Assembly: GCA_051294375.1 (NCBI GenBank)
Contig: CM119271.1
Coordinates: 6,112,875-6,176,874 of the forward strand
From: Paraspadella gotoi
Taxonomy: Eukaryota > Animalia > Chaetognatha
Direction: 5' to 3'
DNA length: 64,000 nucleotides
The notes beneath the pieces are model-generated. The model was not told the DNA's origin. It searched no databases and saw nothing but the letters and a program-made list of their open reading frames with translations. Made by a program: the position numbers and the translations under genes. Positions 1 through 36,139 of this stretch are shown here, piece after piece; the first letter of the stretch is position 1, and each line of letters starts with the position of its first letter.

Positions 1-1015
1 TCCTTTCGAGAAAGAGCGTCTCGACCAAGAGCTTAAGCTCATCGGAGAGTTCGGTCTTCGCAACAAGCGCGAAGTCTGGCGCGTCAAACTCGCTCTGGCC
101 AAAATCCGAAAATCCGCCAGGGTTCTGCTCACTCTCGACGAGAAAAATCCTCGCCGTCTCTTCGAGGGTGAGTTCAAATAAAAGTTATTGTGGCCGATTT
201 TCTTTACTTTCATACGTAGCTGAAATAGACCAGGAAATGGGCTGTTGATGACTCTTTGTTGTAGTCAATTCTGTTATAACCATTTACTATTTAGAACCAA
301 TTACTTTTTAAACCAGTGGCTGCGCCAATAAATGTAACAGTTCAGTTTAAGCCCTTGAATGAAAGCGATTTACATTTTAGTACTTAAAAAAAATATTTTG
401 TAAATCAAAACTATATTTTTTTTCTCGCATCATTTTTCTCATTTTTGTATTTGCATACTTTTTAAATTTGTTTACATTTAAAAAGATAATATTAATACTA
501 AATTGGTAGTTTGAAAACTTATATTTTAAATTTCAATAGGTAACGCTCTTCTTCGTCGTCTGGTGCGCATCGGTGTCTTGGACGAGTCGAAAATGAAGCT
601 TGATTACGTTTTGGGTCTTCGCATCGAAGACTTCCTGGAACGCAGATTGCAGACGCAAGTATTTAAGCTCGGTAAATGCACCCAAATTTTTGAAGGATCC
701 CTGGAACTGTCAACATTTCTATTCATCGTTTTTATCATCGTAAAATTTCGTTTTCCTTCCAAATATCGATCCTATTTCTTCCTTTATTCAGGCCTTGCAA
801 AGTCCATCCACCACGCCCGCGTGCTGATCCGACAGCGTCACATCCGCGTGCGCAAGCAGCTCGTCAACATCCCCTCGTTCATCGTGCGTCTCGACTCGCA
901 GAAGCACATCGACTTCAGCCTCAAGTCGCCCTACGGCGGCGGACCTCCCGGCCGAGTCAAGAGGATGAACGCTAAGAAGGGCACCAAGGGCGACGACGAT
1001 GAAGACGAGGATTAA
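1..1015 (+). CDS. RPS9: 40S ribosomal protein S9 (uS4), 5'-truncated by the window edge; exons <1-167, 540-671, 792-1015
   Basis: Spliced translation gives [28 protein letters not shown]...[66 protein letters not shown] introns at 168-539 and 672-791; AATAAA near 1125. Confidence 0.97.
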
Positions 1016-1550
1016 TTTGCGGCCACCGAATATCGTTTTGCCGCAAAACAAAGGAAACAAAACGAGAAAAAAATTAAACTGATAAATTTTCTGATTTGAG
1101 GTCATAAGTTTTATAATGTTTCCATAATAAAAGTTTGAAAGAAGTCACTTTTCCAGATTGTAATTAAGCATTTAGATTAAGCTTCCAAATTTTTTTCCTT
1201 TTCTACCTAGGTGGTTGAATATAAATAAACTTTGTTTGGCGCCTCAAAAAGAACCCAAAATATTCAACATGAGAACTAATTTATTACTTAATGATTCGTT
1301 TTGTTTTTGGTAAATTTATTTTATAGCCTTTTAGTTTTTTACCAGATTTTCGATCAAACTAGTGTGACGCGACATGGTACGAAAACGTTTTTCCACACTC
1401 GACCAACTCTTATCTCGAATGTTTCGTGCGCCGTTCGCTTCGTTTCTTCATCCCTAAGAGCTGTATTGGTGATAATTCTAGCTGCTTCTCTTAATCGTTA
1501 ATCAACACCATCTCGCCGTGGCCCCTGTTCTTGGCCAACCGGTCCCCGTC

Positions 1551-32600: not shown

Positions 32601-35600
32601 TTCCCTGAGAAGGTTGCGTGTTTGATAGTAGGGCTCACCACTTATGGCAACAACCGGGTTGCCTGTGATGCCCATTGGGATGGGGCATCTCACTGTTGGT
32701 TTTGGGGGCTTCCGACCCTCAGTGACGCCTCCAGTCACTGGCGCGGTTACCCTAGGACGGTCTCGCTTTGCCAACGCAGAGGGAAGTCGTTAGGACTGTG
32801 GATGGAACACTACGCTTGGGATGGTGTGTTCCCCCTCTGAGCCAATGGATTTTGGCTGAAGGATGGTGGACGTGAGGCGGTGTGAATATACCGCCACAGT
32901 ATCTCATTTTTGATTAAAGCTCTAGCTATAACGCTATATCTTACTTTTTTGTGCGTGTTTGTCCATTTGTCATTGGATATTCCTTTTGTTTTTATATTTT
33001 TATTTTTTATACATTTTATTTTGATTTTTTATATGTATTAAGCCAAATTTGTCATGTACTATAAAACTTAGTTTTCCTGTATCAAATTAGATTTTTTAAG
33101 TATCATTGAAGTTAGTCATGGGTCCAGATTTTTTTTTCATGCGATTGTGACCATCCTTATGTTTTTAAGATTTTTATGATAACTATTGAAATATGTTTAT
33201 CTCCTCGACATTTCTCTCAGCATACCCGGATCACCCAGCTCTGGCGACGGTATTCGCTCCTCGATGCTTGCTGACAAAAGCAGTACCCCGCCCCCGACTC
33301 CTCCGCCGCCCTTACGCTTGCCTCTACCGCGCCTCTTCTCGGATCTCAAATTCATACATCAATTGGTTTTCGTGGTTGCGATTTTAGCCTCCCTAGTGGC
33401 GCTGCCTTTGCCATCGTTCGTCGCTGGCGCCATTTTTGGTGCCGTCGTCGTAACTGCTTTTTGGTCTTTGATTATGCTCATCGCTTCTTCATTCCGGACG
33501 GTGAAGCCGGAAGAAGGACGGAAGAAGGATAAGGTGTTGACATTTGGTGAGTTTTTAACTTGATTTAATTAGATTAGGGTCCAAAATGTTCTTCTTCCAT
33601 CTCTCTTCTAAACACCTCCCGCAACAGATCCTCCCCTTCCGTTTGTCCACTCTCCGACATTCCCTCGCCATCCTTCGGCCACTCCTACCGTGCATGTGGG
33701 TTGGGTCAATCTTCTGCCCTTCCCATACGAGCCCGTAACATACCACGTGGCGCAGACATACTCCGTACTTGCTTCGCTCGACTCGACATCGGGGGTCCTA
33801 ATCCTCCGGCGTCCCCGCCTTAATGTTCCCAAGAGAGCCATGCGAAACGAGGTGTTGCCCACAGACGCCGCCTTCACGGAAGTTCGCGAGTATCGCCTCG
33901 ATCACTCCGCATCTATCCGCCTCTTACCTCTGGGACTGGTGTCCAAGAGGCTCTTCAGCAAAAAGTATCCCATCTCCATCGAACTGGGCGACGACGTCGA
34001 AGAGGACAACGACGGGGCTCTTGTCGGAGATTGCGCCAAACTTCGAAACCGTTTGCCTAATGCCAACGTTGAAAAGCCCGATGATTCTGAGCGAGACGTC
34101 GCGACCGATTTGGGATACGAGCTCGTCTCCAAGGAAATATTGCAAATGAAAGCTATAACATTGTTTGCTCGCTCGTGCAGGGAAAAGGAAGAGTGGTACC
34201 AGAAGCTTCTGGAGGTTACAAAGGTGAGATTTTTTTTTCTCGTTTCTCAGAAGATTAGATATTTTCATTTATTTTTTTTTCTAGCCTCCTCCAGCGTCTA
34301 CATCTATAAACGAATCCGCCGCCTCTGCATCTTGTCATGAGTCTCCGGTCAAACGGGCGGAACCTCTCGATTTTTCCCAGCCGGTTGTTTTTCGCAAGGC
34401 GCCCATGTTCGAGACACTTGAGCGCGACCCGAGTTTCGGCGAAGGCAACTTTGACGGAACTCTCGAGGACGACCGCATCGAACTTCCTTCAGCATCGGAG
34501 CGGGATGATGCCACCGACGATGATTTCAAGGATTATCTAAGCCGCGCCACGGAGGCAGCGGCAGGGTCGAACCCGGCGGACGCCAATGGTATCGGATCAG
34601 CGGAAGTGGCCACCGACGCTGACGCCTTAGAGAGCGAGTCGTCGTCCTTCGTTCCGGCGGTGATCCCGGAGCCCGCACCTTCCACGGTCTCCCCCTCTCC
34701 TCCCCACATTTGGCTGAATGCGCTCCTCATGCGTCTCTTTTGGGACTTTCTCCGGGAGGCCAAGTGGCGTCGTCTCCTCATGGAGAAAGTCCAGAAGAAA
34801 CTAGGAAAGATGCATCTGCCCCATTTCATCAACGAGTTGCAGGTGACCGAAATGGACCTGGGAAAAGCCCTGCCCAACATCTCGCGCGCTGGGGATCCCT
34901 ATCTCGACGACCACGGTCTATGGATCAAGTTGGCCGTGGATTATCGCGGCTCGGCTAAGATGACGCTCGAAACGAAGATGAACCTGATGAAGTTGAAGCG
35001 AGCGTCGACGAAGACGTTGGCAGGCGCCGAAAGCGCCGGCGCCACTCCTGCCGCGGAGGAAAACGATTTGGGTAAAAAGGAGGAGAAGAAGAGAAGCGAG
35101 AAGTTGGCGCCGCTGTTTAACGAGGATGCGGAGGACAGCGCCGAGTCGGACAGCGAAATCGAGGTTTGGGCGAATGAGGGGGGGGGAAATTCATTGCGAG
35201 TTCCTAGTTTTACTCCCTTTTTTAATGCTTAATTTTCGTATTTTATTTAGGACAACGACGAGCCCATTGATCCTTCAAAGGATGACAGCTCGCAGCTACA
35301 TTTGCAGCAACCTCAAGGAACTTCGAAAAAGATCCTCAGCTTCATAGATAAAGTCGCCGCCACGAAATATTTTCAACAGGTGACGGAAAAGAATCGTACT
35401 TACGACCAGTCCCAATTTCTAATTAACAGCTAGCAAAAGAAATAAAAAGATCGCGTTCGCTTCTGTCTAGGCTACCGAGGTGAAAGTGATAAAAAAGGCC
35501 ATGGAGGGAGTATCCAATACCCCGTTGATCCTCACCGTCTGCGTGGAATCGCTGACGGGAACTCTTTGTCTAAACGTACCTCCAGCCCCCTCGGACCGCC

Positions 35601-36139
35601 TATGGTGGGGCTTTCTGGGCGATCCCCATCTTAAGTTGTCCGTCACGCCTCGCATCGGTGACAAGGAACTCACGTTGACTCAAGTCACCGACTGGATTGA
35701 AGCCCGACTAAAGGTGAGACTGATAAATTAATGTAAAAATGGCAATGAATGAATGAGCGCCTTTCGCAGTTACACAACCATAACCTTATTATTGGTGTCA
35801 AGGAGGATAAAAAACGCTATAACCATTTACCATTTATTGTTACGTTAGTTCCATAAGTTACGTAAGTTACATTTGAAGACTTTTACTGATTAAAACAAAA
35901 TGCACACATTCCCATTTCGTCGTGCTTTGAAAAAATGTGGCCATTTTCTTTGTCTATGGTTTCTCAGATTATCGGCACCAATTTATCATTAATTATTATT
36001 ATTATTAAATTAATTATCATTAATCCTTATTCTCTTACCCTGTACATAGATGGAGTTCGAAAAGATTCTCGTCATCCCGAACATGGACGATTTGATTATT
36101 CCGCTACTAAATCCCGCTTCTGTTCACAAGGACACTTGA
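29665..36139 (+). CDS. TEX2: TEX2 (SMP-domain ER contact-site lipid-transfer protein), multi-exon; first coding exon uncertain (candidate ATG micro-exon 29284-29303)
   Basis: Disordered N-terminus, TM hairpin (LVFVVAILASLVALPLPSFVAGAIFG), PH-like region (GWVN...YHVAQTYSV...LFSKKYPISI...LFARSCREKEEWY) and SMP domain (WLNALLMRLFWDFL...LPHFINELQVTEMDLG...LETKMNLMKL; NVPPAPSDRLWWGF; FEKILVIPNMDDL). Confidence 0.88.
32374..32898 (-). mobile_element. Miniature or deleted LTR retroelement (TRIM-like) in a TEX2 intron: full LTR 32898-32643, PBS-like TGGTGAGCCC at 32640-32631, ~235-bp non-coding internal part, first 33 bp of a second LTR at 32406-32374
   Basis: GTGGACGTGAGGCGGTGTGAATATACCGCCACA is directly repeated at both ends. 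A TGG-initiated motif lies 2 nt after the LTR. No TSD flanks the LTR itself, unlike the solo copies. Confidence 0.75.
32506..32607. repeat. Three tandem copies of a ~32-bp unit (GGGCATAGGCGTTT(G/T)GTCGTAGCGTACCC) inside the LTR element
   Basis: Directly visible repeats starting near 32506, 32538 and 32578. Confidence 0.9.

What the first reader, a model, noticed from the sequence alone, without database searches (positions are those of the whole stretch)
1..36139. Candidate 36-kb, nine-gene eukaryotic operon resolved by spliced-leader trans-splicing
Seen: nine consecutive unrelated genes are all on the + strand (1/256 if orientation were random). Stop-to-start distances are 535, 621, 1234, 132, 256, 88, 144 and about 900-1300 nt. 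The spacers are AT-rich and contain acceptor-like YAG sites shortly before each ATG (1345, 6253, 10770, 14587/14630, 18834/18883, 25838/25841, 27701). Established: SL-resolved operons with ~100-nt spacers occur in nematodes, tunicates, flatworms and chaetognaths, and are enriched in housekeeping and germline RNA-metabolism genes. Inference: at least the core Tudor-NPAT-NBAS-C5orf22-ARL6IP1 (10.8-28.4 kb) is one polycistronic unit, possibly driven from or through RPS9.
Basis: partly seen in the sequence, partly recalled or inferred. Interest (0 to 1): 0.85.

Follow-up and report, generated by a model that had tools for sequence, protein, structure and literature searches.

The report
Nine-gene arrow-worm housekeeping operon
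Nine unrelated housekeeping genes lie head to tail in what is likely an arrow-worm genome, and intron-free RNA assemblies run across three of the five gaps examined, so at least the tightly packed middle genes likely form one operon cut apart by spliced-leader trans-splicing, an arrangement already known to be common in arrow worms.

Summary
The nine + strand genes are real and unbroken (RPS9, INTS3, XPOT, Vreteno-like Tudor, NPAT-like, NBAS, C5orf22, ARL6IP1, TEX2). Two of its arguments fail: the acceptor-like YAG sites score no better than shuffles (p 0.27), and about 41 nine-gene same-strand runs are expected by chance in a 21,000-gene genome. New support: spliced contigs of one run bridge 3 of 5 spacers examined; one equals fully spliced NBAS+spacer+C5orf22 to the base (6889 nt). 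A 95%-identical RPS9 cDNA of a relative begins with the last 16 nt of the published chaetognath leader SL2, placing the window likely in Chaetognatha, where 18% of genes are in SL-resolved operons. No leader was seen on any gene of this window and promoters could not be tested. Verdict: probable new example of a known, common chaetognath operon (core about 0.72; all nine as one unit about 0.4). Its length would tie the published maximum of nine genes. The scan noted another nine-gene cluster elsewhere in this genome.

The parts
1..1015 (+). RPS9 (uS4), last three coding exons; 5' end lies before the window
   Evidence: gene model; Pfam S4; 164/172 identical to L001 protein
1016..1550 (+). Spacer 1, 535 nt; AATAAA at 1126 and 1224; best acceptor-like AG at 1345; a possible ATG-only first exon of INTS3 at 1374-1376 is untested
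   Evidence: no reads laid here
1551..5820 (+). INTS3, 3 exons, 1179 aa
   Evidence: Pfam Ints3_N and HEAT_Ints3_C; named homologues at 43-49% over nearly full length
5821..6441 (+). Spacer 2, 621 nt
   Evidence: bridging inferred only from the length of RNA record 1
6442..9612 (+). XPOT (exportin-T), 2 exons
   Evidence: Pfam Xpo1 and Exportin-T
9613..10846 (+). Spacer 3, 1234 nt, several poly(A)-like hexamers; the most likely place for an internal promoter or a long 3' UTR
   Evidence: bridging inferred only from the length of RNA record 1
10847..14499 (+). RRM-MYND-Tudor protein, Vreteno-like architecture (likely piRNA pathway), 3 exons, 871 aa
   Evidence: Pfam; Vreteno architecture from PMC10711660 passages
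14500..14631 (+). Spacer 4, 132 nt, none of six poly(A) hexamers searched; bridged by RNA record 1
14632..18669 (+). NPAT-like, one exon, 1345 aa, N-terminal LisH (the name NPAT is recalled, not returned by any search)
   Evidence: LisH E 4.6e-4 below Pfam cut-off; unnamed relative P0272
18670..18925 (+). Spacer 5, 256 nt; ATTAAA at 18686; RNA record 1 ends at 18670 and record 2 begins at 18838
18926..25757 (+). NBAS, 10 exons, 1777 aa; all 9 introns spliced in RNA record 2
   Evidence: Pfam Sec39; joints
25758..25845 (+). Spacer 6, 88 nt, none of six poly(A) hexamers searched; bridged by RNA record 2
25846..27605 (+). C5orf22 (UPF0489), 5 exons, 444 aa; all 4 introns spliced in RNA record 2
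27606..27749 (+). Spacer 7, 144 nt; AATAAA at 27655, YAG at 27701 and 27704; RNA record 2 ends at 27649, record 3 begins at 27712
27750..28352 (+). ARL6IP1-like reticulon-homology protein, one exon, 200 aa
   Evidence: Pfam RHD_RETREG1-3
28353..28954 (+). Spacer 8, 602 nt; bridged without gap or difference by RNA record 3
28955..36139 (+). TEX2-like SMP-domain protein, 12 exons, 1228 aa; likely last gene of the cluster (AATAAA at 37042)
   Evidence: Pfam MMM1; length of record 3 fits exons 2-12 plus a 3' UTR to about 36965

Best explanation
The nine co-oriented genes, in what is likely a chaetognath genome, likely include an SL-resolved operon: one upstream promoter would drive a polycistronic pre-mRNA through at least Tudor-NPAT-NBAS-C5orf22-ARL6IP1 (and probably TEX2), which would be cut by 3'-end formation and by trans-splicing of a 36-nt leader onto an unpaired AG before each downstream gene. 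Shown: gene order, spacing, spliced contigs across three spacers, a chaetognath leader on a close RPS9 relative. Inferred: phylum, single promoter, leader on these genes. Whether RPS9-INTS3-XPOT belong to the same unit (spacers 535-1234 nt) or the cluster is two or three operons is open (all nine as one unit about 0.4).
For:: X1 record 2 carries all 13 predicted NBAS and C5orf22 introns spliced out and runs through the 88-nt spacer; its length equals the predicted spliced di-gene exactly (6889). Record 1 joins the Tudor last exon, the 132-nt spacer and NPAT; record 3 joins ARL6IP1, the 602-nt spacer and TEX2 exon 1; the one metagenome contig with the window's RPS9-specific motif (L001, intron-free, 164/172 aa identical) begins exactly with the last 16 nt of chaetognath SL form 2 (PMC2481426 Table 3); chance about 3e-9 at a fixed place; the motif is absent from the window; none of 8 named RPS9 proteins checked has the protein motif. 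PMC12460157 (passages): in P. gotoi nearly half of genes are trans-spliced, 18% are in operons defined by <250 bp, operons favour housekeeping and germline genes and exclude signalling genes. Four spacers of 88-256 nt must hold both UTRs, leaving little room for a terminator and a promoter. Two of the bridged spacers lack poly(A) hexamers, as upstream cistrons of Ciona and Oikopleura operons do (PMC1488885 passages).
Against: No leader was seen on any gene of this window: none of the 17 loose-end rows shown lies at a spacer (128 rows not shown), and records 2 and 3 begin flush, 3 nt and 7-10 nt inside the nearest YAG, with no leader letters. A contig across two genes does not show a single transcript; overlapping UTRs or read-through would fuse contigs too. 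All bridging comes from one run of one study. Two of five spacers examined are not bridged. Acceptor-like sites are at chance level. The leader evidence is from a relative and from RPS9, which may be the head gene, so it says nothing direct about downstream cistrons. Four spacers exceed 500 nt. The phylum rests on one contig plus an earlier unreviewed note.
Confidence: 0.72

Rival explanations
1. Densely packed but independently transcribed genes, each with its own compact promoter (perhaps still trans-spliced from its own outron); contigs fuse because 3' UTRs overlap the next 5' end or polymerase reads through.
For: Records 2 and 3 begin flush without leader letters; four spacers are 535-1234 nt and hold poly(A)-like hexamers; in runs X2 and X3 the C5orf22-like contigs end about 105 nt before the projected start codon and show no NBAS piece (computed by hand table 8; low depth, weak); nine-gene same-strand runs arise by chance; in P. 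gotoi most trans-spliced genes are not operonic.
Against: 88-144 nt stop-to-start leaves almost no room; record 1 also ends flush one base after the NPAT stop, where the RNA must continue, so flush ends are an assembly or filter effect and not start sites; three spacers are bridged.
Confidence: 0.15
2. Stable, fully spliced dicistronic or polycistronic mRNAs (Tudor-NPAT, NBAS-C5orf22, ARL6IP1-TEX2) that are not, or only partly, resolved and are translated by re-initiation or internal entry.
For: The bridged contigs are completely spliced, no separate leader-bearing piece was laid in the bin of the NBAS-C5orf22 spacer (bin depth 199.7 is explained by record 2 alone), and the two shortest bridged spacers lack poly(A) hexamers.
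Against: Contig depth is one flat figure, so rare precursors give the same picture; short leader branches are typically pruned by de Bruijn assemblers (own knowledge); unresolved dicistronic cDNAs are ordinary intermediates of SL operons in Ciona (PMC1488885 passages); the clade has a leader.
Confidence: 0.09
3. Assembly artefact: the gene order is a mis-join.
For: The window has N gaps and noisy patches beyond 50 kb; record 1 differs from the window at 16 sites around the Tudor-NPAT junction.
Against: No N lies in 1-36139; RNA contigs reproduce three adjacencies, with no differences in the listed pieces of records 2 and 3.
Confidence: 0.02

Closest known systems
Paraspadella gotoi SL-resolved operons (PMC12460157; passages, methods part 1, outline and supplement search seen)
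   Same: Likely the same phylum; co-oriented housekeeping and germline genes; spacing under 250 bp in the core; ribosomal-protein member; nine genes equals the longest operon reported there.
   Different: The reported nine-gene operon holds ribosomal-protein, ubiquitin and proteasome genes, not this set; four spacers here are 535-1234 nt stop-to-start; leader addition is validated there by reads and not here. The gene table (Supplementary Table 1, xlsx) was too large to read, so this cluster may already be annotated in it.
Spadella cephaloptera RPS14-PCNA operon (PMC2481426; sections 12 and 13 text seen)
   Same: Ribosomal-protein gene followed by an unrelated gene; same leader family (form 2) as on L001.
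   Different: Two genes with 3 nt between poly(A) site and acceptor; here up to nine genes and sites unmapped.
Ciona intestinalis and Oikopleura dioica operons (PMC1488885, PMC7986045; passages seen)
   Same: No operon-specific leader; upstream cistrons often lack AATAAA; unresolved dicistronic cDNAs detectable.
   Different: Other phylum and unrelated leader sequence; intercistronic DNA 0 nt (Ciona) or 23-30 nt (Oikopleura).
Caenorhabditis elegans SL2 operons (PMC7986045 passages)
   Same: About 100-nt intercistronic distance as in the core spacers.
   Different: Use a dedicated SL2 for downstream genes; chaetognaths show no operon-specific leader. No shared spacer motif beyond T-runs was found here.

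Membership tests
Chaetognath SL-resolved operon | Two or more adjacent, unrelated genes on one strand | tested here: met
   Nine gene models
Chaetognath SL-resolved operon | [quoted passage not shown] | tested here: met
   Core only: 132, 88, 144 nt stop-to-ATG; the 256-nt spacer shrinks to at most 167 nt once the RNA-covered 5' UTR of NBAS is counted. Not decidable for the 535, 621, 1234 and 602 nt spacers without UTR ends.
Chaetognath SL-resolved operon | Organism is a chaetognath and uses SL trans-splicing | tested here: met
   Indirect: L001, 95% identical RPS9 with the same diagnostic motif, starts with 16 nt of chaetognath SL form 2. One contig, from a relative.
Chaetognath SL-resolved operon | Leader joined to the 5' end of downstream genes | tested here: inconclusive
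   No leader among 17 loose-end rows shown of 145; only contigs, no raw reads; a scan for ARL6IP1 relatives found no locus
Chaetognath SL-resolved operon | Polycistronic precursor across the spacers | tested here: inconclusive
   Spliced contigs bridge 3 of 5 spacers laid, 2 more inferred from length; contigs are not single molecules
Chaetognath SL-resolved operon | Single promoter at the head, none in the spacers | not testable with these tools
Chaetognath SL-resolved operon | Leader not encoded at the locus | tested here: met
   The 16-nt leader end and 9-10-nt leader starts are absent from the window on both strands; no Rfam match
Nematode SL2-type operon | Dedicated SL2 leader on downstream genes | not testable with these tools
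   No leader reads; PMC12460157 reports no operon-specific leader in P. gotoi

The most novel reading that the evidence does not exclude
All nine genes, plus whatever lies upstream of RPS9, form one transcription unit of more than 36 kb, longer than the published chaetognath maximum of nine genes and invisible to a 250-bp rule because half of its spacers are 500-1200 nt; the junctions without a poly(A) hexamer (Tudor-NPAT, NBAS-C5orf22) are resolved by trans-splicing itself or persist as spliced dicistronic mRNAs, coupling piRNA, histone-locus, Integrator, tRNA-export and ER-membrane genes to a ribosomal-protein promoter.
Probability: 0.2. Interest if true: 0.55.

Novelty: new member of a known kind. 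Interest (0 to 1): 0.3.

Why it matters
As an operon it adds one more example to about 1,470 validated in P. gotoi, so little on its own. It matters somewhat as a test locus: it mixes very short spacers with and without poly(A) hexamers and long ones, so it could show how a phylum without an operon-specific leader couples 3'-end formation to trans-splicing, and whether distance-based operon calls undercount operon length.

Tried and rejected
Acceptor matrix from the 31 window introns: spacer AGs not above shuffles, so YAG sites rejected as evidence. Orientation statistic rejected. Shared spacer motif: only T-runs among 5- and 6-mers; TGACG in 4 of 8 spacers is too rare to judge. Rfam: 0 matches, no SL RNA gene in the window. 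No run on record as RNA was listed; X1 is a guess by the tool, but its GT..AG joints show spliced origin; 13 of the 15 joint rows shown are the predicted introns, 2 come from repeats, 9 rows were not shown. Uncovered parts of two spacers (18671-18837, 27650-27711) are not used as evidence: a filter drops records and record 1 stops one base after a stop codon. Contig ends could not be matched to leader joints or poly(A) sites. X2 and X3 gave only short C5orf22 and NBAS pieces. ARL6IP1 alignment scan of metagenome contigs: 54 pattern hits, 0 confirmed. NPAT identity could not be confirmed by name (Atlas not available). The 18-codon open frame at the 3' end of L001, 377 nt after the RPS9 stop, could not be identified as INTS3. 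Look-alike stretches in other scanned genomes: none. A search for 'longest operon' with 'trans-splicing' returned only PMC12460157; no search was made for this exact gene set, so I make no claim that it is unpublished.
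Full report
Observation. Reading 1-48000 and building exon models gives nine consecutive + strand genes with unbroken frames and 31 GT..AG introns (median 131 nt): RPS9 (5' end outside the window), INTS3, XPOT, an RRM-MYND-Tudor protein, a 1345-aa single-exon protein with an N-terminal LisH (NPAT-like; name recalled), NBAS, C5orf22, ARL6IP1 and TEX2. 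Pfam supports eight; the LisH hit is below cut-off. The RRM-MYND-Tudor order is that of Vreteno (PMC10711660, passages). 68% of 1-36139 is coding. Beyond TEX2 the window holds a minus-strand immunoglobulin-domain gene with long introns.

Chance. A run of nine same-strand genes is expected about 41 times among 21,072 randomly oriented genes. An acceptor matrix built from the window's own introns scores the best AG of the eight spacers no higher than dinucleotide shuffles (48.7 against 45.4 +/- 5.3, p 0.27). Spacer AT content (64-77%) resembles that of introns (67%). The unusual feature is that four successive spacers are only 88-256 nt including both UTRs.

RNA. One run, X1, holds 0.74 of the sampled words of 18500-28400. 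It is not on record as RNA, but its contigs laid on 13800-29150 are spliced: 13 of the 15 joint rows shown are the predicted NBAS and C5orf22 introns. Record 2 covers 18838-27649 and its length, 6889 nt, equals fully spliced NBAS plus the 88-nt spacer plus C5orf22 to the base. Record 1 joins the last Tudor exon, the 132-nt spacer and NPAT; record 3 joins ARL6IP1, the 602-nt spacer and TEX2 exon 1. So 3 of the 5 spacers laid are bridged. Against: a contig is not a single molecule; all comes from one study; the NPAT-NBAS and C5orf22-ARL6IP1 spacers are not bridged; no leader appears in the 17 loose-end rows shown (128 hidden); records 2 and 3 begin flush a few bases inside a YAG. Since record 1 also stops flush one base after the NPAT stop, where RNA must go on, flush ends cannot be read as start sites.

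Lineage. INTS3 has no close named relative; best named hits are molluscs, chelicerates, myriapods and nemerteans at under 50%. An earlier unreviewed note on this genome called it an arrow worm (e1-10588163). I tested this: a degenerate pattern for an RPS9 motif of the window, absent from 8 of 8 named RPS9 proteins checked and present in 32 of 151 stored relatives, matched one metagenome contig, L001. It is an intron-free RPS9 cDNA, 164 of 172 residues identical, and its first 16 bases are the last 16 of chaetognath leader form 2 in Table 3 of PMC2481426; the 16-mer is not in the window and has about 3e-9 chance at a fixed place. This places the window likely in Chaetognatha and shows that an RPS9 orthologue is trans-spliced. 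It is one contig of a relative and says nothing direct on the downstream genes.

Mechanism. Most likely (0.72) one promoter drives a polycistronic pre-mRNA through at least the five-gene core and probably TEX2; cis-splicing removes introns; 3'-end formation and transfer of a capped 36-nt leader to an unpaired AG release single mRNAs; bridging contigs come from precursors or abutting ends. Shown are order, spacing, bridging and the clade's leader; promoter and leader on these genes are inferred. RPS9-INTS3-XPOT may be the head of the same unit (about 0.4 for all nine) or separate units. Rivals: independent compact promoters with fused contigs (0.15), stable dicistronic mRNAs (0.09), mis-assembly (0.02). 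Two of the three bridged spacers lack all six poly(A) hexamers searched while both unbridged ones carry one; upstream cistrons of Ciona and Oikopleura operons also lack AATAAA (PMC1488885, passages). With five spacers this is a hint only.

Known systems. PMC12460157 (passages and methods part 1) reports 10,197 of 21,072 P. gotoi genes trans-spliced, 18% in operons called at under 250 bp, no operon-specific leader, enrichment of housekeeping and germline genes, and a longest operon of nine genes of other content. PMC2481426 describes the RPS14-PCNA operon of Spadella. The cluster works like these and meets the spacing criterion in its core; the defining leader on downstream genes is untested in effect. 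The paper's gene table could not be read, so the cluster may already be listed there.

Verdict. Real cluster, probable operon, known kind. Interest 0.3; the residual interest is its length and its mix of spacer types.

Noticed in passing
window 19597-19838, 32642-32897, 40960-41215; partial copy ending at 32405: A dispersed repeat of about 255 nt, copies 93-99% alike in the matched blocks, with short imperfect inverted ends; in TEX2 intron 6 a partial and a full copy flank about 240 nt, like a miniature LTR element (TRIM) or MITE pair. X1 contigs pile on it at summed depth above 20000, so it is likely high-copy.
   Followed up: partly
window 14295-14600: RNA record 1 differs from the window at 16 sites in about 300 nt (4 of 8 coding changes non-silent in the last Tudor exon) and at none in the next 4 kb: a divergent haplotype block at a likely piRNA gene.
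   Followed up: partly
window about 38500-62300, minus strand: Multi-exon immunoglobulin-domain receptor-like gene with long, microsatellite-rich introns, a sharp contrast to the packed cluster; (CT)n/(GA)n cover 2.6% here against 0.5% in 1-36139.
   Followed up: no
window 55530-56900: Tandem array of a roughly 55-60 nt unit with indel noise, next to N gaps; its unit resembles the end of the adjacent exon, so it may be a noisy long-read patch or an exon-boundary repeat.
   Followed up: no
L001, last 54 nt of the cDNA strand: An ATG-initiated open frame begins 377 nt after the RPS9 stop, just behind a pyrimidine-rich TAG: possibly read-through into the next cistron in the relative; not identified.
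   Followed up: partly
window 1551-36139: INTS3, XPOT, NPAT-like and the 3' two-thirds of NBAS are nearly intronless (exons of 2.1-4.0 kb), which suggests heavy intron loss in these genes (comparison with other animals recalled, not tested).
   Followed up: no
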